DNA from: a virus
Virus record (IMG/VR): IMGVR_UViG_3300009515_000004
Location: 1-41,529 of that record
Strand: one strand, 5' to 3'
DNA length: 41,529 nucleotides
The notes beneath the pieces are model-generated. The model made no database searches and was not told the DNA's origin. It saw only the letters and a program-made list of their open reading frames with translations. Positions 7,839 through 38,257 of this stretch are shown piece after piece. Both the position numbers and the translations under genes were made by a program. Positions within the stretch are counted from its first letter, which is position 1. Each line of letters opens with the position of its first letter.

Positions 7839-8747
7839 ATGAATGAAGCGTTTGTCGTCGTCTGTGACTCAAGAGATCGGGAGAAGTGGCTGGCTGCCAG
7901 GCAGGAGGGGGTCGGTGCCAGCGAAGCTGCAGCCGTCCTCGGCATCAGCCCGTGGGATTCGCGGCTGTCGCTGGCCGCTCGGAAGGCCGGAGCGATGGAG
8001 CCCATCGAGGACAACGAGTTCATGGCTGCCGGCCGCAGGCTCGAGCCCTTCATCGCTGAGTGGGCGTTGGAAGAGAACGAGATCAACCGGCGCGGGATGC
8101 CGTGCGGTCTGATGCTTCGCAGCATCGCGATGCCGTGGCTGTTCTGCACGCCGGACTGGTGGGTGGAGGAAGAGTACGAAGGCGAGAAGATCCGTGTCCC
8201 GCTACAGGTCAAGAACACCATGCGCGCTTCCGACTGGGATGATGGAGTGCCGGACCCGATCATGATCCAGTGCCAGACGGAGCAGATCGTCACGGGATCT
8301 CCTTGGAGCTACGCCGCTGCGTTGCTGACAGGCAACCGACTGCGATGGGTACGAGTCGATCCGAACCCTGATCTCCATGAGTCGATCATCACGAACACGA
8401 AGAAGTTCTGGGATGACCTTTCTGCTGGGAAGATCATTGATCCGGACGCCAGCAAGGCGAGCACCGATGCACTTCGTGCACTCTACCCGCAGGACAACGG
8501 CGAGACGATCGCACTCGACGGCGAGTACCTCGAGATCGCCCTGGAGATGGACGGACTCAAGCGCGAGCGGAAGGAGATCGACGAAATCATCAACCTCGGA
8601 GAGAACCGCATCAAGGCGGCGATGGGGGATGCGACGTTCGCCACGTTCCCGGACGGGAGCGGCTACACGAACAAGACACAGACGCGGAAGGAGTACGTCG
8701 TGAAGGAAACTTCATTCCGCGTGCTCCGACGAAAGGATGCGAAATGA
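7839..8747 (+). CDS. YqaJ-type viral recombinase exonuclease (lambda-Exo-like)
   Basis: N-terminal REKWLAARQEGVGASEAAAVLGISPWDS is the typical YqaJ signature. Immediately upstream of RecT with an ATGA overlap. Confidence 0.85.
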   Translation: MNEAFVVVCDSRDREKWLAARQEGVGASEAAAVLGISPWDSRLSLAARKAGAMEPIEDNEFMAAGRRLEPFIAEWALEENEINRRGMPCGLMLRSIAMPWLFCTPDWWVEEEYEGEKIRVPLQVKNTMRASDWDDGVPDPIMIQCQTEQIVTGSPWSYAAALLTGNRLRWVRVDPNPDLHESIITNTKKFWDDLSAGKIIDPDASKASTDALRALYPQDNGETIALDGEYLEIALEMDGLKRERKEIDEIINLGENRIKAAMGDATFATFPDGSGYTNKTQTRKEYVVKETSFRVLRRKDAK

Positions 8748-9568
8748 GCGAGCTGACCACGACGAAGCAGAAGGAGTACTCGATCCAGGATTACCTGATG
8801 TCTCCGACGTTCCACCGGCAGCTCGCCCTGGCCGCGCCTCGTGACGTCCAAGCGGAGCGGATGGCGAGGGCTGTACTCACCCTGGTTCGCGGCGATCCGA
8901 AGCTTGCGAGCTGCACGCCGAAGTCCCTCATGTCGGCGGCGATGTGCTGTGCGCAGACCGGGCTCGAGCCTGGGGCGCTGGGGCACGCCGCAGTGGTTCC
9001 GTACAACGGGATCGCGCAGTGGCAGGCGATGTACAAGGGGCTGCTGCACCTGATCTACAGGTCTGACAAGATCAGCGCGGTGCAGGCCGGCGTCGTGCAC
9101 GAGCTTGACGAGTTCGACTACGACGAAGGGTCGTCACCGTTCGTCCACTGGAAGCGCGGGCTTCGATCGGAGGATGAACGAGGCGATCGGATCGCAGTGT
9201 TCGCCGCGATCGTTCCAAAAGAAGGGCCGTCGATCGTTCGAATCGAGCACATTTCAGAAATCGAACGAATCCGCAAGCAGTACAGCAAGGGCAAGCGGGA
9301 TGACCGACCGTGGGTGACGGAGTACGACGAGATGGCGCGCAAGACCGTGGTCAAGCGCGCAGCCAAGCTCGCGCCGATCAGCGTCGAGATGGGGTTCGCG
9401 ATCGGCTACGACGACCTGGCCGAGGTGGGGAAACCGCAGCTTGCGTACACGGACGAGCCGAAGGTGGAGGAGTACTGCAACCTGACCGTGGGAGACACGG
9501 ACATCGCATGCTCACTCGCACCGGGGCACGAGGGAGAGTGCTCGCCTACTCCTCTTTCGGAGGAATGA
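8744..9568 (+). CDS. recT: RecT-family single-strand annealing protein
   Basis: RecT-like blocks: SLMSAAMCCAQTGLEPG, AAVVPYNG, YKGLLHLIY, MARKTVVKRAAKLAP. Paired with the exonuclease. Confidence 0.9.
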   Translation: MSELTTTKQKEYSIQDYLMSPTFHRQLALAAPRDVQAERMARAVLTLVRGDPKLASCTPKSLMSAAMCCAQTGLEPGALGHAAVVPYNGIAQWQAMYKGLLHLIYRSDKISAVQAGVVHELDEFDYDEGSSPFVHWKRGLRSEDERGDRIAVFAAIVPKEGPSIVRIEHISEIERIRKQYSKGKRDDRPWVTEYDEMARKTVVKRAAKLAPISVEMGFAIGYDDLAEVGKPQLAYTDEPKVEEYCNLTVGDTDIACSLAPGHEGECSPTPLSEE

Positions 9569-33414: not shown

Positions 33415-33492
33415 CGTCGTCGTCCTGGTGAGTTGACTCTGGGGGAGATTTCCCACTCGGACACCAGAATCGTACAATCTCGATTCGATGCC

Positions 33493-33590: not shown

Positions 33591-33784
33591 CGGATTGCCA
33601 CCCGGTGGAAAGTTCTGGAGGGCGACGAGCCTCACCCGGTCGGTGGTCTTTCGTGATGATCGCACCGCACGCCGGGCCGAGGTGGGCTGGCCCGCGGTCG
33701 AGCAGTACACCACTGGTCTTGCACATGTCGGGTTTGGCAACCCGGCGCAAGGATAACGGCGCGGGCTGCCTGCCTGGAGGCGGC

Positions 33785-34105
33785 GTGAGGGTTTCGGAAC
33801 TCCCGGTTGAGGACGTCAAGAACTACCTGTGGTTCATCCACAAGATGTGCCTGTTCTACGACGCGAGCCTGACCGGCGGGCCGCGCACGGTGGAGCGCAA
33901 CCGCTTGGTGAACGGAAGTCCCGGCTCCAAGCACACCTTCGCCGGAGGCTACGGCTGTGCATCGGATCTCGTGCTTGAGGATCCGAGCCGGCTGACCGCG
34001 CTCGAGGCCGAGGTGGTGCGCGAGGGCTACCACTTCTACCGGGGGCCGGGGTACTCGGACGGCCAGTGCCACATCCAGATGCTCAAGGTGGGGCACAAGA
34101 TATGA
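33785..34105 (+). CDS. Peptidase M15-type cell-wall peptidase (endolysin candidate, 106 aa)
   Basis: Zn-ligand pattern SKHTFAGGYGCASDL (H-x(6)-D region) and a C-terminal CHIQM, as in M15/YcbK-type peptidases. The GTG at 33785 follows GGAGG. Confidence 0.75.
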   Translation: MRVSELPVEDVKNYLWFIHKMCLFYDASLTGGPRTVERNRLVNGSPGSKHTFAGGYGCASDLVLEDPSRLTALEAEVVREGYHFYRGPGYSDGQCHIQMLKVGHKI

Positions 34106-34653
34106 GCGTCGGAGTCTACGGCGATTCGCTCTCGATTGGCTGGCCGGATCTGATGGAGCCGATGGTGCTGTTCGCCTCGTCGGTGGGCGGTTCGAAGTTG
34201 CTCTCGGACCCGGCACATCCACAGCTTGGCTGGAGTCCGACGGCCAAGCGGCCGAACCTGTGGGACACGGTGGTAATGCAGGAGCCGATCCCGGACATCG
34301 CCATCGTGAGTCTGGGCCGCAACGATCTCCACCTTGGCGTCTCACCGGGCGGGCCGACAGGGATCCCTCCCTACGCCTTCCGCTCGCACATGATGTCGTT
34401 CCGAAATGGTCTTCTTGGGCTTGGCGTGCAGACCGTCCACTGGCTTCAGCTCGATCGCGGACCCAGCAACCAGACGCGCGCGGCCTGCGCTGCGGTCTAC
34501 CGCGACGCGATCTACGGCGTGAACGGAGAGGACTTCACGGTGCCGCTCGATCGGATGCTGAGCGATCAGCACATCGGCGGCGATGGGGTTCATCACTCGC
34601 AGTCCGGCTACGAGTTCATCGCAACAATACTCAGCTCGTGGGTGAAACCGTGA
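34102..34653 (+). CDS. SGNH/GDSL-family hydrolase (esterase)
   Basis: Block I VYGDSLS, block III SLGRNDL, block V GDGVHHS (D-x-x-H). ATGA overlap with the peptidase gene. Confidence 0.8.
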   Translation: MSVGVYGDSLSIGWPDLMEPMVLFASSVGGSKLLSDPAHPQLGWSPTAKRPNLWDTVVMQEPIPDIAIVSLGRNDLHLGVSPGGPTGIPPYAFRSHMMSFRNGLLGLGVQTVHWLQLDRGPSNQTRAACAAVYRDAIYGVNGEDFTVPLDRMLSDQHIGGDGVHHSQSGYEFIATILSSWVKP

Positions 34654-34937
34654 GCGGACTGACACATTCACATCCACGCTCTGACATTTGTCCGTACTGT
34701 GAACGCGACACCCTGCGCGTCGAGATCGAGCGGCTCCAATCTCAATCCGAAGAGCGCCTGCGGCTGCACCAGAAGGCTGTACGCCACGCGGCTGATAGTG
34801 ACGCAGATCGGGCAACGCTGCGCACCGAGGTCGAACGGCTGCGCGCGCTCGCAATCGATGCGTGCCTACGCTTCGACGCGGCTGGCATGATTGTAAGTGC
34901 ACAACGAATCCGAGAAGCCCTGGAGGAGAAGCCGTGA
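34650..34937 (+). CDS. CxxC + coiled-coil small protein (95 aa), ends ALEEKP
   Basis: GTGA overlap. CPYCERDTLRVEIERLQ. Paralogous to the next gene. Confidence 0.65.
   Translation: MSGLTHSHPRSDICPYCERDTLRVEIERLQSQSEERLRLHQKAVRHAADSDADRATLRTEVERLRALAIDACLRFDAAGMIVSAQRIREALEEKP
34915..34937 (+). repeat. Junction cassette copy 1: AAGCCCTGGAGGAGAAGCCGTGA
   Basis: 23-nt string identical to 35184..35206. Contains the SD (GGAGG), the GTG start of the next gene and the TGA stop of the previous gene. Confidence 0.9.
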
Positions 34938-35206
34938 ACCTCGTTCAGAGTTGCTCGCAGCATCAGCCGCGAATGGGCGAACCGTGCCCGAGTTGCGAGT
35001 GCGACAACCTGCGCACCGAGAACGAGCGGCTGAGTAAAGGATTGTTAGAAGTTGCCAAACAAAATGGTAGGTTGGAATTTCAGTGTGCATACTTCGAGGG
35101 TGAGAAAGCTCGTCTTGAAACAGCAATACGTGCTGTTTTGAAAGGCCCCTGGACAAAGAGCGCCATGCTGCATCATTTGCACAAAGCCCTGGAGGAGAAG
35201 CCGTGA
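34934..35206 (+). CDS. CxxC + coiled-coil small protein (90 aa), ends ALEEKP
   Basis: GTG start inside the junction cassette. CPSCECDNLRTENERLSKG. Confidence 0.65.
   Translation: MNLVQSCSQHQPRMGEPCPSCECDNLRTENERLSKGLLEVAKQNGRLEFQCAYFEGEKARLETAIRAVLKGPWTKSAMLHHLHKALEEKP
35184..35206 (+). repeat. Junction cassette copy 2: AAGCCCTGGAGGAGAAGCCGTGA
   Basis: Identical to copy 1. Confidence 0.9.
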
Positions 35207-35406
35207 GCGACGAGACTCACAACGAAGGTGTGTTGGTAACTGCCATCGGCCTTCGCGTCTTCGAAGGCAAATACATCGTCGAAGCAGAGATCGGCGGAAA
35301 GTGGATCGTGGTGATTCAAGAATCGGGAACGATTGTTGGACACATCGTCGAATCCAGCTTTATGAAGAGGGCGCGAGAATCTCACGACGGGGAGGATAAG
35401 CCGTGA
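35203..35406 (+). CDS. Hypothetical small protein (67 aa), ends GEDKP
   Basis: GTG start inside the junction cassette. Beta-rich sequence. Confidence 0.6.
   Translation: MSDETHNEGVLVTAIGLRVFEGKYIVEAEIGGKWIVVIQESGTIVGHIVESSFMKRARESHDGEDKP
35389..35406 (+). repeat. Junction cassette copy 3: GGGGAGGATAAGCCGTGA
   Basis: Variant of the cassette. It also shares the downstream GCGAC with copy 2. Confidence 0.85.
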
Positions 35407-35813
35407 GCGACAAGTACAACATCGCCGTCGTAGACCGAAAGACTTACGCAGAATTGCAAGAGCGCCTGAAAAATGTCGAAGCAGAGAACGAGCGGCTGCG
35501 GCACGAGCTGCGCAGTGTTCGTGATGTTCGCAATGAGGAGAGTAATCATCGGTGGAAAGACATCGAGAGGGTGATTGCCGAACGAGATGCGCTGCGTGAC
35601 GAGGTCGAGCGGCTGCGGCACGAATGGGATGTAACTCGCAATAGCCTGAAGGATTCTCGCGAACGGTTGAAACGTGAGCGCGCCGAGAACGAGCGGCTGC
35701 GCGACGTGATTCGCTCGACGCACTCAGACGACCGCTGCAAGGTATGGGAAGGCTACGGCAGGCACCATCCAGATTGTTTGATCGAGGAACTGGAACCGGA
35801 GGAGAAGCCGTGA
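35403..35813 (+). CDS. Coiled-coil protein with three ENERLR/VERLRHE repeats (136 aa), ends PEEKP
   Basis: GTG start inside the junction cassette. AENERLRHEL, DEVERLRHEW, AENERLRDVI. Confidence 0.7.
   Translation: MSDKYNIAVVDRKTYAELQERLKNVEAENERLRHELRSVRDVRNEESNHRWKDIERVIAERDALRDEVERLRHEWDVTRNSLKDSRERLKRERAENERLRDVIRSTHSDDRCKVWEGYGRHHPDCLIEELEPEEKP
35797..35813 (+). repeat. Junction cassette copy 4: CGGAGGAGAAGCCGTGA
   Basis: GGAGGAGAAGCCGTGA is identical to copies 1 and 2. Confidence 0.9.
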
Positions 35814-36229
35814 TCACGCTTCTCGGGTCGATGTACCTCGCGGCCTGCGTGAACGGCGTCGCAACCGGCGTTCTCGGACTGACACTCGGCCTCGTGCAAT
35901 GGTGCGCGCCAGGCCCGCTGCAAGGGAGCACCGTAGTGGCGCTGATCTACGAGCCGGGCGCTGTCGATCGCGTGCAGCCGGTGGGCACCCTGCCGGCGGG
36001 GCACAATCTCTTTCTGGTGCAGAGCCCACCCGGAATGCTCTACACGCTGGGATGGGAAGGATCCGACGTTTCCCCCGACGTCGCTCAGACGTGCCTCGGC
36101 CAGGTCGTCGGCGGGGCCGACTTCGCGACGTTCCGCGCCGCCATGGCAGAGGGGTTCGTGGGCGGGAACCACTTCGCGGGCTTCCGCGCTGCGCTGGGGA
36201 CGCCGTGCCTCAACCGAAGCCTCCCTTGA
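35810..36229 (+). CDS. N-terminally membrane-anchored protein (139 aa)
   Basis: GTG start inside the junction cassette. TM: ITLLGSMYLAACVNGVATGVLGLTLGLV. Confidence 0.6.
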   Translation: MITLLGSMYLAACVNGVATGVLGLTLGLVQWCAPGPLQGSTVVALIYEPGAVDRVQPVGTLPAGHNLFLVQSPPGMLYTLGWEGSDVSPDVAQTCLGQVVGGADFATFRAAMAEGFVGGNHFAGFRAALGTPCLNRSLP

Positions 36230-36429
36230 AAGCCTCGAATTTCCATGAGGAGTTCGTCGTAAGTGCCGACAGATACGAGTGTTTCTGGTGGCACGACGAC
36301 CACTACCGGCTGGCCCCGAAGCCGCATGTGTTTGACGAGATCGATTTGTCGGCGTACATTTCCCGGCGTGCGCAAGGTGGGGCTTTGAATGACACAGCAA
36401 GAATCAAAACCGCCGCTGACTCGCCCTGA
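36226..36429 (+). CDS. Possible small protein (67 aa, TTG start)
   Basis: TTGA overlap with the upstream stop, in frame with track ORF 35899..36429. It overlaps the next ORF by 41 nt. Weak. Confidence 0.3.
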   Translation: MKASNFHEEFVVSADRYECFWWHDDHYRLAPKPHVFDEIDLSAYISRRAQGGALNDTARIKTAADSP

Positions 36430-36610
36430 CTTCGCGCACACGAAAGCTGGAGAGTCGAGAAGCCCTGGCAGCAATGCCGGGGCTTCTTCATTTCCGATCA
36501 CGAACGGTGAGATCATCACCTTCTGCGGCATCTGCGGCGCGTTCGACGAGGCGGAGTCGTACGATTTGGGTGGCGTTCGTGTGCTCGCGTGCGAAGCTTG
36601 TCGGTCGTGA
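36389..36610 (+). CDS. Small zinc-ribbon-like protein (73 aa)
   Basis: GGTGGGG 7 nt upstream. FCGICG...LACEAC. Confidence 0.45.
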   Translation: MTQQESKPPLTRPDFAHTKAGESRSPGSNAGASSFPITNGEIITFCGICGAFDEAESYDLGGVRVLACEACRS

Positions 36611-36768
36611 CGATCGACGAGGCGCTCCAGAAGGTCGGTGACGTGATGCGCGTGCATGGCGACGACGCCATTCCGATGTTCGTGATCCACGAAGAGTTGA
36701 AGCGGCTCCGCACCGAGCTGGAGCAGGAGCGGCAGAATCATTATCTGCTGGCGAAGGCGACGCGGTGA
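36607..36768 (+). CDS. Small hypothetical protein (53 aa, GTG start)
   Basis: Hand-translated VTIDEALQKVGDVMRVHGDDAIPMFVIHEELKRLRTELEQERQNHYLLAKATR. GTGA overlaps at both ends. Confidence 0.45.
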   Translation: MTIDEALQKVGDVMRVHGDDAIPMFVIHEELKRLRTELEQERQNHYLLAKATR

Positions 36769-37028
36769 GAGACGAATGGGTCGATCGCTGCGAGCTTCGT
36801 GGATTCCTGTACGGACGCGATGACGAGAGGATCCAGGAAGTCGGCCTGCGATCTCCGCACCCGTACATCTACTTCCGAGGCAAACTCGGATCGACCAACA
36901 TCCTGGACATGTTCGAGAAGGAGTTCAAGACTTCTGACGAAGATCTCCGGCCGGGAAGTCGCATCTTCCGTCTGACCACGCTGTTGGGTGGAACGGTTGC
37001 GAAGTACGAGGAGCTTCTTCGAAATTGA
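36765..37028 (+). CDS. Hypothetical protein (87 aa, GTG start)
   Basis: GTGA overlap. ORF in the track. Confidence 0.55.
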   Translation: MRDEWVDRCELRGFLYGRDDERIQEVGLRSPHPYIYFRGKLGSTNILDMFEKEFKTSDEDLRPGSRIFRLTTLLGGTVAKYEELLRN

Positions 37029-37042
37029 GGAGAATCGACATC

Positions 37043-37519
37043 ATGGCGCGGATCGAGTTGAGTGAAGAGGAGCACCTGATGGCTGCGGTAGCTGGGGTGT
37101 TCCGGCGCGTGCGGTCGGTAGCTCTCGGCAAGAAGGACAACGCCGGCCATGACGGCAAGGATGTGTGGACGAACGAGATCGAGGGGTGTTGCGCCGAGAT
37201 GGCAGCTGCCAAGTGCCTCGGCGTCTACTGGTCCGGGCAGATGGGCGAGAAGGCGCGCGACATTCTGGGGTTCGAGGTGCGCAGCACGACGCACGAGAAC
37301 GGCCGGCTGATCGTCCGTCGCAACGACCCGGACGATGTTCCGTTTCTGCTGGTCGTCGGCCAGCTTGGAAAGTACGACGCGATCGGCTGGATCTACAGCA
37401 AGGACGCGAAGCGCGACGAGTGGCTCGCCGACCCGAACAACCGCTTCAACGGGGATCGGTCGAAGATGAGCTACTTCGTCCCGCAGGCTGCACTCAACAA
37501 GACGCGGCCTCCGAAGTGA
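37043..37519 (+). CDS. Putative PD-(D/E)xK-fold nuclease (158 aa)
   Basis: The ATG is preceded by GAGGAG. Pattern EIEGCCAEMAAAK ... ARDILGFEVRS ... FLLVVG gives an E ... D ... E-V-R arrangement typical of restriction-endonuclease-like folds. Family not identified. Confidence 0.6.
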   Translation: MARIELSEEEHLMAAVAGVFRRVRSVALGKKDNAGHDGKDVWTNEIEGCCAEMAAAKCLGVYWSGQMGEKARDILGFEVRSTTHENGRLIVRRNDPDDVPFLLVVGQLGKYDAIGWIYSKDAKRDEWLADPNNRFNGDRSKMSYFVPQAALNKTRPPK

Positions 37520-37621
37520 GAACGAAAACTTCCCGCACGAGCCAGGGTGGATCCCTCGAATCGTGCCCAACCCGGCCTTTGCGCCGGACCACCGAGCCGA
37601 ACGAGCTTGATGCGGCCGAAG

Positions 37622-37661: not shown

Positions 37662-37861
37662 TCCCCAAGGCATCATCGGTTCCCCACAATGCGGGGTCGA
37701 ATCAGCAGACGGATAAGTCGGTGTTGCCACGGCGAAGCGCAGGGCTGGTTCGGCCTCACCCTGCAGGAGCCGCGGATCGCGTGCGGGAAGCACATATCGA
37801 GGAAATCGAATGACCACTCTATTGACTTGGGGACACTTGCGTCCTCAGAAAGGAGACGTTG

Positions 37862-38257
37862 ATGACACACCGAAAGGTGCTGGGGATCCTGGTAACAATC
37901 GCTCTCACCCATTCCCTGGCTTCGACTTCGTCTGCGCAGGATCAGGACGCGGACTCCATCCTCGACGCCGATGACAACTGCGTGCTCGTACCCAACCGAA
38001 ATCAGATCGACAGCGACAACCCGCAGGACGGCTTCGGCAATGCCTGCGATGCCGACCTGACCAACGACGGTGTCATGGGCGGAGACGACTTCTCCATCCA
38101 CCGGGGATGCGCTCTCCTCGGTGCCCTTCAACAACCGTTCGACAGCCGATGCGATACCAACGCCAACGGGATCTTCGACAACATCGACCGGGTCCGCTTC
38201 CGACGCTCCTGGCGACGTGAAGCGCCCGGACCCTCCGGCATCGTGGGTGAGCGATGA
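37862..38257 (+). CDS. Secreted Ca-binding protein: signal peptide, thrombospondin type-3 repeat and dockerin-like loops
   Basis: AAAGGAG SD. Signal peptide MTHRKVLGILVTIALTHSLASTSSA. TSP3 motif DADDNCVLVPNRNQIDSDNPQDGFGNACDAD. Loops DLTNDGVMGGDD and DTNANGIFDNID. Confidence 0.75.
   Translation: MTHRKVLGILVTIALTHSLASTSSAQDQDADSILDADDNCVLVPNRNQIDSDNPQDGFGNACDADLTNDGVMGGDDFSIHRGCALLGALQQPFDSRCDTNANGIFDNIDRVRFRRSWRREAPGPSGIVGER

What the first reader, a model, noticed from the sequence alone, without database searches (positions are those of the whole stretch)
34640..35813. Conserved 16-23-nt gene-junction cassette repeated four times (five with a degenerate copy)
Four successive gene boundaries use almost the same string, which supplies the C-terminus ...EEKP, the stop, the Shine-Dalgarno sequence and the GTG start of the next gene:
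- AAGCCCTGGAGGAGAAGCCGTGA at 34915..34937, and identically at 35184..35206.
- GGGGAGGATAAGCCGTGA at 35389..35406.
- CGGAGGAGAAGCCGTGA at 35797..35813.
- A degenerate GAAACCGTGAGCG at the SGNH/first-gene boundary (about 34643..34655).

The genes between the cassettes are unrelated in part (coiled-coil, beta-rich, membrane-anchored). The conservation therefore belongs to the boundary, not to the genes.

This looks like a built-in recombination and translational-coupling linker that would allow cassette shuffling of small accessory genes.
Basis: seen in the sequence. Interest (0 to 1): 0.66.

Follow-up and report, generated by a model that had tools for sequence, protein, structure and literature searches.

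The report
Repeated ribosome-binding stop-start gene junction
Four small phage genes in a row end in almost the same 16-23 bases, which combine a ribosome-binding site, the stop codon and the next gene's start codon; this is an ordinary translational-coupling signal, but its short identity also marks the places where related phages gain, lose and recombine small genes.

Summary
GGAGGAGAAGCCGTGA occurs exactly at 34922, 35191 and 35798. Shuffles predict 0.64 matches.

Each copy is the last four codons (EEKP, EDKP or EVKP) plus TGA of one gene. It contains a strong Shine-Dalgarno sequence upstream of a GTG start that overlaps the stop (GTGA). This is a standard termination-reinitiation junction.

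The string is not special to this phage. It sits at gene junctions in over 100 unrelated viral contigs and in cellular genomes of many phyla, and it needs a start codon (ATGA/GTGA far outnumber CTGA).

Convergence alone does not explain five copies here. A, B and D are old paralogues: gene bodies 43% identical, last 19-23 nt identical. A-D have GC3 0.58-0.66 against 0.79-0.82 in the flanks. The closest relative has one unrelated gene in the same slot. More distant relatives carry the same 20-24 nt junction on mosaic genes of the same family. Another phage family swaps small genes exactly at such junctions.

Verdict: a known kind of coupling signal that also supplies microhomology for cassette turnover. 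It is not a dedicated linker.

The parts
33605..34105 (+). M15-peptidase-like gene (probable endolysin). It is the first gene of the overlapping chain. A promoter-like site lies at 33450-33478.
   Evidence: Weak match to Pfam Peptidase_M15_3. Homologues in L001 (67% identity) and L545 (42%). Promoter scan.
34102..34653 (+). SGNH/GDSL hydrolase gene, the conserved left flank of the array. It ends ...SSWVKP*.
   Evidence: Weak match to Pfam Lipase_GDSL_2. 59% identical homologue P0002 on L001, which ends ...SGWIA*. GC3 0.79.
34641..34656 (+). Degenerate junction SGNH|A: GGTGAAACCGTGAGCG.
   Evidence: Repeat family D4. Junction listing.
34650..34937 (+). Gene A, 95 aa: a Cys pair (CPYC) followed by a coiled coil. 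It ends ...REALEEKP*.
   Evidence: ORF list. 30% identical to B over 92 aa. GC3 0.61. No homologue outside its own contig.
34915..34937 (+). Junction cassette A|B: AAGCCCTGGAGGAGAAGCCGTGA.
34934..35206 (+). Gene B, 90 aa: a paralogue of A (CPSC...ENERL). It ends ...HKALEEKP*.
   Evidence: The GTG start has a Shine-Dalgarno pairing energy of -10.0; the alternative ATG start called by JGI has -1.2. GC3 0.58.
35184..35206 (+). Junction cassette B|C, identical to A|B over 23 nt.
35203..35406 (+). Gene C, 67 aa: unrelated to A, B and D, and an ORFan. It ends ...HDGEDKP*.
   Evidence: Only a self hit among 5.8 billion proteins.
35389..35406 (+). Junction cassette C|D: GGGGAGGATAAGCCGTGA. It shares AAGCCGTGAGCGAC with B|C.
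35403..35813 (+). Gene D, 136 aa: a coiled coil with three ERLR units. It ends ...LEPEEKP*.
   Evidence: The ENERL 15-mer occurs at 35484 and 35685.
35797..35813 (+). Junction cassette D|E: CGGAGGAGAAGCCGTGA.
35810..36229 (+). Gene E, 139 aa: a membrane-anchored protein, the conserved right flank of the array.
   Evidence: 46% identical homologue on L001, aligned from residue 1 (MITLLGS against MITFVGS). This supports the overlapping GTG start. GC3 0.82.
6197..6212 (+). Fifth copy of the cassette, GGAGGTGAAGCCGTGA. It lies between gene 5790-6212 (ends ...KEVKP*) and gene 6209-6472.
   Evidence: Shine-Dalgarno pairing energy -17.7 kcal/mol.
35018..35032 (+). Second conserved DNA island, GAGAACGAGCGGCTG (ENERL). 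It is exact in B here and in D at 35484-35498 and 35685-35699. Copies with 2 mismatches lie at 34722 (A) and 35601 (D).
   Evidence: 9 matches in the window against 0.38 expected. The same 15-mer is the recombination breakpoint in relatives L536 and L545.
7839..9568 (+). RecE-like exonuclease (7839-8747) and RecT-like annealing protein (8744-9568) encoded by the phage. These are candidate catalysts of short-homology recombination.
   Evidence: phrog_434, E = 1.9e-66; phrog_148, E = 7.8e-64.

Best explanation
The cassette is the 3' end of each small gene written so that it also serves the next gene.

**Anatomy and coupling**
- The codons GAG-GAG-AAG-CCG (EEKP) contain a strong Shine-Dalgarno sequence, GGAGGAG.
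- Five spacer bases (AAGCC) follow.
- The stop TGA overlaps the next start as GTGA.
- A ribosome that terminates on gene n is held by the Shine-Dalgarno sequence and restarts on gene n+1. This is termination-reinitiation coupling.
- The run M15, SGNH, A, B, C, D, E and the next gene is therefore translated as one chain from one transcript.

**The string is a common convergent solution**
This exact string is a favoured solution in GC-rich genomes. That explains why it is found in unrelated viruses and bacteria.

**Why four near-identical copies sit in a row here**
1. A, B and D belong to one fast-diverging family of small proteins with a Cys pair and a coiled coil. The 3' junction and an internal ENERL island are the only stretches of this family kept at the DNA level.
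2. The A-D block is a compositionally foreign insert in a variable slot between conserved lysis-region genes.
3. The 13-24 nt identities act as microhomology for unequal crossing-over or gene conversion, possibly by the phage's own RecE/RecT. This keeps the junctions alike and lets whole genes be gained, lost or recombined while coupling is preserved.

**What is shown and what is inferred**
- Shown: the anatomy, the statistics, the paralogy, the variable slot, the conserved junction in relatives, and cassette swaps at such junctions in other phages.
- Inferred: coupling in vivo, and recombination at these particular sites in this phage.
For: **Anatomy**
- Five copies against 0.64 expected. All five sit at GTGA stop/start overlaps.
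- Shine-Dalgarno pairing energy is -10 to -11.3 kcal/mol, and -17.7 at 6209. The alternative ATG starts have no Shine-Dalgarno sequence.
- There is no promoter or terminator inside the array.
- There is no significant RNA structure: z-scores range from -1.0 to +1.1.
- Coupling through an intragenic Shine-Dalgarno sequence at overlapping gene pairs has been shown experimentally (PMC6728339).

**Tied to a start codon, not to a peptide**
- In IMG/VR, GGAGGAGAAGCC is followed by ATGA 109 times, CTGA 8 times and TTGA 4 times. The GTGA form occurs in 107 stretches.

**Convergence**
- 70 of 96 single-copy viral hits are junction-like.
- 77 of 120 hits in cellular genomes of many phyla are junction-like, against 16% of random GTGA.
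- AAGCC is the commonest variant, but only about one third, among the spacer variants scanned two positions at a time.
- The residues before EEKP are diverse.

**Local history**
- A and B are 30% identical over 92 aa. Their bodies are 43% identical at the nucleotide level and their last 7 codons 95-100%.
- The ENERL 15-mer occurs three times exactly, in B and D.
- GC3 is 0.58-0.66 for A-D against 0.79 and 0.82 for the flanks.
- L001 has the order M15, SGNH, one unrelated 56-aa gene, E.

**Relatives**
- L537, L545 and L547 have M15 (42% identity) and SGNH (33%) homologues followed by family members with GAAGCCCTGGAGGAGAAGCCGTGA.
- L536 and L545 genes are mosaics: N = Q(1-33) + P(44-97). The breakpoints are at the junction and at the ENERL island.

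**Shuffling elsewhere**
- L123, L170, L116 and L214 carry the small genes A, Q-A, Q-T and T behind one conserved gene. Every swap is at an AAGCC-ATGA junction flanked by 10-13 nt direct repeats.
- About half of 16 gene-sized indels between close contigs end in microhomology made of a Shine-Dalgarno sequence plus a start or stop.

**Enzymes**
- The phage encodes RecE-like and RecT-like proteins and a Holliday-junction resolvase.
Against: - No expression or ribosome data exist, so coupling is inferred from sequence alone.
- The closest relative (L001) has neither the motif nor any A-D homologue, so gain and loss at the motif itself has not been observed for this phage.
- JGI's gene caller chose downstream ATG starts for B and E.
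- Gene-boundary breakpoints are also what random illegitimate recombination followed by selection for intact genes would leave.
- Enrichment of homology breakpoints at motif junctions was weak in my rough test: 6 of 31 against 77 of 932, and the control set contains many false junctions.
- Ten of the 14 metagenome hits to the 20-mer are in unrelated contigs. Identity of 20 nt can therefore arise by convergence.
- The collection scans were capped at 120 rows, so the variant frequencies are samples.
Confidence: 0.7

Rival explanations
1. The cassette is a dedicated, selected recombination linker, a phage 'mini-att' or attC-like site. Its primary function would be to let a phage recombinase move small accessory genes in and out. 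The translational role would be secondary.
For: - Arrays of 2-7 small genes with the same junction occur in several unrelated phages: L004, L005, L007, L012, L034, L045, L086 and L099.
- Swaps fall exactly at the junction in the L116 family.
- Genes in L536 and L545 are mosaic.
- The window encodes RecE/RecT.
Against: - The same 16-mer lies at junctions of ordinary chromosomal genes in many bacterial phyla.
- It depends on an overlapping start codon.
- It is only the commonest of many spacer variants.
- It has no inverted repeat or structure that a site-specific recombinase could recognise.
- L001 has no motif at this slot.
Confidence: 0.12
2. The similarity is pure convergence. Each junction evolved independently to the same optimal combination of Shine-Dalgarno sequence, spacer and GTGA. 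Recombination plays no part in their similarity.
For: - The exact 16-mer, and even the 20-mer, recurs in unrelated genomes.
- AAGCC is the commonest 5-mer before overlapping starts, even at junctions that were not selected for it.
Against: - AAGCC makes up only about one third of each two-position variant set, and about 7% of unselected GTGA junctions.
- About 16 other coupled junctions in the same window use other strings.
- Identity extends to 19-24 nt, covering silent sites of Ala and Leu codons. The probability of these codons given the peptide ALEEKP is 0.035.
- Mosaic breakpoints sit at the junction in relatives.
Confidence: 0.12
3. The similarity is a passive remnant of recent tandem duplication. 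The four genes would be recent copies of one another, and the junction simply has not yet diverged.
For: - A, B and D share a Cys pair, coiled-coil units and the ENERL 15-mer.
- L045 and L034 show tandem paralogues with the same tail.
Against: - A and B bodies are 43% identical at the nucleotide level, with third positions at 33%, which is random.
- C, E and the genes at the 6209 junction are unrelated.
- The junction is also kept in relatives whose flanking proteins are only 33-42% identical.
Confidence: 0.04
4. The conserved unit is a peptide: a C-terminal EEKP tag recognised by a protease, chaperone or partner protein. The nucleotide identity would be a by-product of codon bias.
For: All five proteins end in [ED][EDV]KP. 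The preferred codons GAG, AAG and CCG give a probability of 0.28 for the EEKP codons under amino-acid conservation alone.
Against: - The CCC-TGA form (same peptide, no start codon) is about 13 times rarer than CCA-TGA, and rarer still than CCG-TGA.
- The tail is found on hundreds of unrelated proteins, always immediately before an overlapping start.
Confidence: 0.02

Closest known systems
Translational coupling by termination-reinitiation at overlapping gene pairs (ATGA/GTGA) with an intragenic Shine-Dalgarno motif (Huber et al. 2019, PMC6728339)
   Same: The stop and start overlap by 4 nt. A strong Shine-Dalgarno sequence lies inside the 3' end of the upstream gene, within 12 nt of the start. 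The genes are co-directional in one operon. The signal forces particular C-terminal residues on the upstream protein.
   Different: Here one exact spelling is reused at five junctions of one phage. Its short identity coincides with the boundaries of variable genes. No experiment has been done on this phage.
PeSLs: conserved promoter plus stem-loop cassettes at gene boundaries that mediate modular shuffling in the hyperplastic regions of T4-type phages (PMC2839356, PMC4122927)
   Same: Both are short conserved sequences repeated at the boundaries of small, variable, mostly ORFan genes. In close relatives, insertions, deletions and replacements are bounded by them. The element also has an expression function.
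   Different: A PeSL is an intergenic early promoter plus a terminator-like stem-loop. The cassette here is coding sequence plus a Shine-Dalgarno sequence and a stop/start overlap. It has no promoter, no stem-loop and is only 16-24 nt long.
[quoted passage not shown]
   Same: There is short identity at gene boundaries, mosaic genes, and phage-encoded single-strand annealing recombinases in the same genome.
   Different: The identity here is explained first by a translational signal that recurs by convergence. The alternative model, illegitimate recombination followed by selection, is not excluded.
Integron gene cassettes with attC sites
   Same: Both are arrays of small promoterless genes separated by a repeated boundary element, with variable cassette content.
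   Different: attC sites are imperfect inverted repeats of 57-141 bp recombined by an IntI integrase next to attI and Pc. None of this is present. The window's integrase is an ordinary phage tyrosine integrase 28 kb away.

Membership tests
Termination-reinitiation coupled overlapping gene pair | Co-directional genes whose stop and start codons overlap (ATGA, GTGA or TGATG) | tested here: met
   GTGA overlaps at 34650, 34934, 35203, 35403, 35810 and 6209. The start of E at the overlap is supported by N-terminal conservation with the L001 homologue.
Termination-reinitiation coupled overlapping gene pair | A Shine-Dalgarno motif inside the upstream gene, within about 12 nt of the downstream start | tested here: met
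   GGAGGAG, GGAGGAT or GGAGGTG lies 5 nt before the GTG. Duplex energy with a generic 16S 3' tail is -10.0 to -17.7 kcal/mol. The host's 16S rRNA sequence is unknown.
Termination-reinitiation coupled overlapping gene pair | Both genes on one transcript | tested here: inconclusive
   No promoter-like or terminator-like site lies between 33479 and 36300 on the + strand. This rests on consensus scans only; there are no RNA data.
Termination-reinitiation coupled overlapping gene pair | Translation of the downstream gene depends on translation of the upstream gene | not testable with these tools
   This needs reporter fusions with premature stop codons, or ribosome profiling.
PeSL-type mobile regulatory cassette (T4-type phages) | A conserved early promoter plus a stem-loop in an intergenic position | tested here: not met
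   There is no intergenic space, no promoter or terminator match, and no significant fold (z-scores -1.0 to +1.1).
PeSL-type mobile regulatory cassette (T4-type phages) | In relatives, insertions, deletions and replacements of small genes are bounded by the repeated element | tested here: inconclusive
   This is met in the unrelated L116, L123, L170 and L214 family and in the L536/L545 mosaics. For the window itself, the slot differs from L001 but L001 has no motif.
Integron attC cassette array | An attC imperfect inverted repeat (about 57-141 bp) at each cassette end, with an adjacent IntI integrase, attI and Pc | tested here: not met
   The conserved stretch is 16-24 nt and has no inverted-repeat structure. 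The only integrase is a phage-type tyrosine integrase at 5161-5790.
Family of small proteins with a Cys pair, a coiled coil and an ...ALEEKP tail (defined here: A, B, D, L545-N, L536-P and L536-Q) | Detectable pairwise similarity, plus the shared ENERL DNA island, plus the junction tail, at the locus downstream of M15 and SGNH | tested here: met
   A-B 30% over 92 aa; N-A 31% over 85 aa; P-D 38% over 55 aa. The 15-mer GAGAACGAGCGGCTG is present in B, twice in D, and in L536, L537, L545 and L547. C does not belong to the family.

The most novel reading that the evidence does not exclude
The small-gene array may be a diversity-generating locus. In this reading, a family of small proteins with a Cys pair and a coiled coil is kept recombinable on purpose. 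Two islands conserved at the DNA level would do this: the internal ENERL 15-17-mer and the junction made of the Shine-Dalgarno sequence, stop and start. The phage's RecE/RecT system would then continually reassort gene halves and whole cassettes while translational coupling is preserved. The junction would be under selection both as a coupling signal and as a recombination site.
Probability: 0.15. Interest if true: 0.6.

Novelty: new member of a known kind. Interest (0 to 1): 0.3.

Why it matters
**Practical value**
- The finding shows how a translational signal can mimic a 'mobile element'.
- It shows that in GC-rich phages the true starts of small genes are often the GTG inside GTGA. The source's gene caller missed this for B and E.
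- C-terminal tails such as EEKP, EVKP and the KP on the SGNH enzyme are imposed by the next gene's ribosome-binding site. They should not be read as functional peptide motifs.

**Evolutionary value**
- It adds concrete cases to the old debate on how phage mosaics arise.
- Whole small genes are gained, lost and recombined at 10-24 nt identities that exist because of translation.
- If this is general, ribosome-binding stop/start overlaps would be a built-in source of microhomology. That would bias recombination towards gene boundaries without any dedicated linker.

Tried and rejected
**Searches for relatives and homologues**
- blastn of 33600-37600 against 50,697 phage records found nothing.
- SGNH as query in IMG/VR, and an SGNH alignment as query in metagenome and genome contigs, found no relative. 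The relatives were found only through exact DNA motifs and the protein database.
- Searches for homologues of SGNH, E, C and an A+B profile returned only self hits plus one 1.4-kb contig, together with spurious long coiled coils. A-D are ORFans at the protein level.
- Pfam and PHROGs gave nothing significant for A-E or for the related small proteins.
- tblastn of all window proteins against the first 107 motif-bearing viral loci showed that those contigs are not relatives of this phage. The idea that the motif marks one phage lineage was rejected.

**Hypotheses tested and dropped**
- RNA structure around the junctions is not significant. The idea that the Shine-Dalgarno sequence is sequestered, or that the junction is a structured element, was rejected.
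- A statistical test for homology breakpoints at motif junctions gave only weak enrichment, and its control set was poor. I rely on the individual cases instead.
- I looked for a conserved '...ARAAL' helix before the tail. Enrichment was mild (9.6% against 4.9%), and the residues before EEKP are otherwise diverse. This was not pursued. One search had an indexing error that one search corrected.
A rough estimate from amino-acid and codon frequencies suggests this may be only a few-fold above expectation, so I do not claim it as a special element.
- The exact string was not found in any phage-related paper in the library.
Full report
**1. The observation**

The window is a complete 41.5-kb contig of a temperate, podovirus-like phage. 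It carries:
- an integrase at 5161-5790 and a DNA methyltransferase;
- RecE-like and RecT-like genes and a Holliday-junction resolvase;
- a minus-strand structural block. Its large terminase is about 47% identical to those of Microcystis phage MJing1, Rhizobium phages and Xylella phage Xfas53.

With up to three mismatches allowed, the 16-mer GGAGGAGAAGCCGTGA has five matches in the window. Shuffles give 0.64, and none of 100 shuffles reaches five.

Three copies are exact (34922, 35191, 35798). One has a single mismatch (35391).

Every copy closes one ORF (...EEKP*...EDKP*...EVKP*) and contains the GTG of the next ORF in a GTGA overlap. Similarity between junctions is limited to 12-19 nt upstream and at most 6 nt downstream. 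About sixteen other overlapping junctions in the window are spelled differently and mostly use ATGA.

**2. What the string is**

Read in the upstream frame it is GAG GAG AAG CCG TGA. Read as a signal it has three parts:
- a strong Shine-Dalgarno sequence, GGAGGAG;
- a five-base spacer, AAGCC;
- a GTG start that overlaps the stop.

Predicted pairing with a generic 16S 3' tail is -10.0 to -11.3 kcal/mol for the starts of B, C, D and E, and -17.7 for the copy at 6209. The downstream ATG starts that the source annotation used for B and E have essentially no Shine-Dalgarno sequence. The overlapping start of E is also supported by residue-by-residue conservation from position 1 with its homologue on L001.

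There is no promoter-like or terminator-like site inside the array. There is no significant RNA fold around any junction.

The anatomy is that of termination-reinitiation coupling at overlapping gene pairs with an intragenic Shine-Dalgarno sequence, which has been demonstrated experimentally in bacteria and archaea (PMC6728339). The chain of 4-nt overlaps runs from the M15-like gene (33605) through SGNH, A, B, C, D and E into the next gene at 36226.

**3. How special is the string?**

It is not special to this phage.

*In viral contigs*
- The exact 16-mer occurs in 107 stretches of IMG/VR.
- In 70 of 96 single-copy loci it lies where a long ORF ends and another begins.
- The contigs are not relatives of the window, and A-D have no homologues in them.

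*In cellular genomes*
- 77 of the 120 hits were junction-like, against 16% of random GTGA in the same DNA.

*Dependence on a start codon*
- After GGAGGAGAAGCC, ATGA was seen 109 times, CTGA 8 times and TTGA 4 times.
- CCC-TGA would encode the same peptide, so the selection is on the nucleotides and not on an EEKP peptide.

*Spacer variants*
- Holding the rest of the string fixed, CC was the commonest of the 16 possibilities for the last sense codon: 33 of 126, ahead of AA (27) and CT (16).
- AA was the commonest for the codon before it: 33 of 128.

So the exact 16-mer is the favoured spelling of a broad family. The amino acids preceding EEKP are highly diverse. The tail is an add-on forced by the next gene's ribosome-binding site.

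**4. Why five copies in one phage?**

Convergence alone is not enough, for two reasons. AAGCC precedes only about 7% of GTGA junctions that were not selected for it, even in phages chosen for having the motif. Most coupled junctions in this window are spelled otherwise. Three local factors emerge.

*(a) Paralogy.*
- A and B are 30% identical over 92 residues (CPxCExDxLRxExERL ... ALEEKP).
- A and D share coiled-coil units.
- The 15-mer GAGAACGAGCGGCTG (ENERL) is exact once in B and twice in D.
- The duplication is old. Aligned codons of A and B are 43% identical, with third positions at 33%. The last seven codons are 95-100% identical.
- Given only the peptide ALEEKP, the window's codon usage would reproduce these codons with probability 0.035.
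- The junction is therefore actively maintained or converted, not a leftover.
- C, E and the two genes at 6209 are unrelated to the family.

*(b) A foreign block in a variable slot.*
- GC3 is 0.79 (SGNH), then 0.61, 0.58, 0.63 and 0.66 (A-D), then 0.82 (E).
- The only close relative found is a 1.4-kb Logan contig, L001 (SGNH 59% identical, E 46%).
- It has the order M15, SGNH, one unrelated 56-aa gene, E, next gene. Homology stops at the last codons of SGNH and resumes at the first codon of E.
- L001 has no cassette at either boundary. Its SGNH ends ...GWIA*, whereas the window's ends ...WVKP* with AAACCGTGAGCG.

*(c) Recombination at the conserved islands in relatives.*
- A metagenome scan for the 20-mer CCCTGGAGGAGAAGCCGTGA gave 14 loci. 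Ten are unrelated, which is convergence again.
- L537, L545 and L547 are one phage (GC 0.53). They encode M15 (42% identical) and SGNH (33%) homologues. Small genes of the A/B/D family follow, with the junctions GAAGCCCTGGAGGAGAAGCCGTGA and GCCCTGGAGGAGCAGCCGTGA.
- L536 carries two further family members.
- The 81-aa gene N of L545 equals the first 33 residues of L536-Q (94% identity) joined to residues 44-97 of L536-P (89%). The two breakpoints lie at the junction and at the ENERL 15-mer.
- N aligns with A (31% over 85 aa), and P aligns with D (38% over 55 aa).

The junction is thus the best-conserved DNA of a family that sits at the same locus in phages whose flanking enzymes are only 33-42% identical. 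It coincides with mosaic breakpoints.

**5. Cassette turnover at such junctions elsewhere**

Four related IMG/VR contigs share a 63-aa zinc-ribbon gene that is 93-96% identical and ends ...NVKEEKP* with GAAGGAGGAGAAGCCATGA. Behind it they carry small genes named here A, Q and T (not the window's A):

| Contig | Small genes behind the shared gene |
|---|---|
| L123 | A |
| L170 | Q then A |
| L116 | Q then T |
| L214 | T |

- Identity of the same gene between contigs is 97.5% for Q, 96.5% for A and 81% for T.
- Every exchange point is an (G)GAG(G)AAGCC-ATGA junction.
- Q is flanked by direct repeats of 10-13 nt, AAGCCATGA(GCGG).
- Among 16 gene-sized indels between contigs at least 85% identical, about half end in microhomology made of a Shine-Dalgarno sequence plus a start or stop, with 10-34 nt of overlap.
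- Arrays of two to seven small genes with EEKP, EVKP or EEEKP junctions, often containing paralogues or swapped C-termini, occur in L004, L005, L007, L012, L034, L045, L086 and L099.

A cruder statistic gave only weak enrichment of homology breakpoints at motif junctions: 6 of 31 against 77 of 932, with a poor control set.

**6. Mechanism proposed**

*Shown*
- The signal anatomy.
- Its dependence on a start codon across collections.
- Its convergent recurrence.
- The paralogy of A, B and D.
- The compositional break at the edges of the A-D block.
- The variable slot.
- The conserved junction and mosaic breakpoints in relatives.
- Cassette swaps at equivalent junctions in other phages.

*Inferred*
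- Ribosomes that terminate at UGA reinitiate at the overlapping GUG with the help of the Shine-Dalgarno sequence. The small genes are therefore expressed in a fixed chain from the promoter upstream of the M15-like gene.
- The 13-24 nt identities serve as substrates for unequal crossing-over or gene conversion. This both homogenises the junctions and allows cassette gain and loss. The phage's RecE-like and RecT-like pair are plausible catalysts; phage annealing recombinases are known to use short or diverged homology (PMC3945230).

Because any product of such an exchange keeps an intact junction, recombinants remain coupled. This favours their survival.

**7. Comparison with known systems**

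- **As a translational signal** it is a member of the known class of termination-reinitiation junctions. Three sequence criteria were tested: two are met (overlap, Shine-Dalgarno position) and co-transcription is only suggested by consensus scans. The functional criterion cannot be tested here.
- **As a boundary element** it works like the PeSL cassettes of T4-type phages (PMC2839356, PMC4122927) and like the classical 'conserved sequences at gene boundaries' model (PMC3974807). It is not a PeSL: it has no promoter, no stem-loop and no intergenic space.
- **It is not an integron attC site.**
- The exact string is not discussed in any phage paper in the library.

**8. Verdict**

The coupling role and the link to cassette turnover hold as the best reading. 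The element is a generic, convergently favoured translational junction and partly the tail of a gene family. It is not a purpose-built linker.

Novelty is low to moderate: a new member of a known kind. Interest is 0.3.

The most novel reading still open is that the two islands keep a small-protein family deliberately recombinable. I put its probability at about 0.15.

Noticed in passing
window 6197-6212: A fifth copy of the cassette, GGAGGTGAAGCCGTGA, lies 28 kb from the array. It sits between an ORFan that follows the integrase (5790-6212, ends ...KEVKP*) and gene 6209-6472. AAGGAGGTGA is a perfect extended Shine-Dalgarno sequence (-17.7 kcal/mol).
   Followed up: yes
window 35018-35032, 35484-35498, 35685-35699 (near copies at 34722 and 35601): A second conserved DNA island, GAGAACGAGCGGCTG (ENERL), is shared by B and D. 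It is also present in relatives L536, L537, L545 and L547, where it is a mosaic breakpoint. Most of these are small ORFs (median 110 aa), and 97 of 130 end in a stop/start overlap. Several loci carry two copies in adjacent genes.
   Followed up: partly
window 34934-35206 and 35810-36229: The source (JGI) gene calls start B at an internal ATG (77 aa) and E at an internal ATG (132 aa). The overlapping GTG starts have strong Shine-Dalgarno sequences. For E, the overlapping start is also conserved with the L001 homologue. These are probable start-codon miscalls.
   Followed up: yes
window 6451-6822, 7839-8747, 8744-9568: The phage carries its own recombination module: a Holliday-junction-resolvase-like gene, a RecE-like exonuclease and a RecT-like annealing protein. 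The last two are joined by an ATGA overlap.
   Followed up: partly
window 34644-34653 compared with L001 760-770: The SGNH enzyme ends ...SSWVKP* in the window and ...SGWIA* in the relative. The extra KP and the AAACCGTGAGCG junction look as if they came in with the A-D block or were selected for coupling.
   Followed up: partly
L545 3352-3530 (minus strand); the same in L537 and L547: The gene after SGNH starts at an ATGA overlap and runs in one frame. The ...EIVEALEEKP* tail and junction are in another frame that has no start codon. The frames meet near a CCGCCGCCG run. This could be a frameshifted pseudogene, a sequencing error or a programmed shift.
   Followed up: no
window 36105-36146 and 36156-36197: There is an internal 42-nt direct repeat (76% identity) inside gene E. 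It encodes a repeated GG(A/N)xFAxFRAA(M/L) unit.
   Followed up: no
IMG/VR and genome-contig scans (loci L002-L534): Pro (CCG or CCA) is over-represented as the last sense codon at overlapping stop/start junctions. After GGAGGAGAAG, CCG was seen 33 times and GCG 9 times, although Ala codons are more common in GC-rich genomes. This could reflect slow termination after Pro or a preference in start-codon context.
   Followed up: partly
L034 10337-12645: An array of at least 8 small overlapping genes has EEEKP, EVKP, EEEKP, DEEKS and EEVKP junctions and two pairs of internal paralogues. This is a duplicated two-gene unit that includes a truncated copy.
   Followed up: partly
window 37859-38257: A 132-aa ORF has an N-terminal hydrophobic segment and Asp-rich repeats (DxDxDNC...NxxQxDxD) that resemble calcium-binding thrombospondin type 3 or dockerin-like repeats. 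This was seen in the translation only.
   Followed up: no
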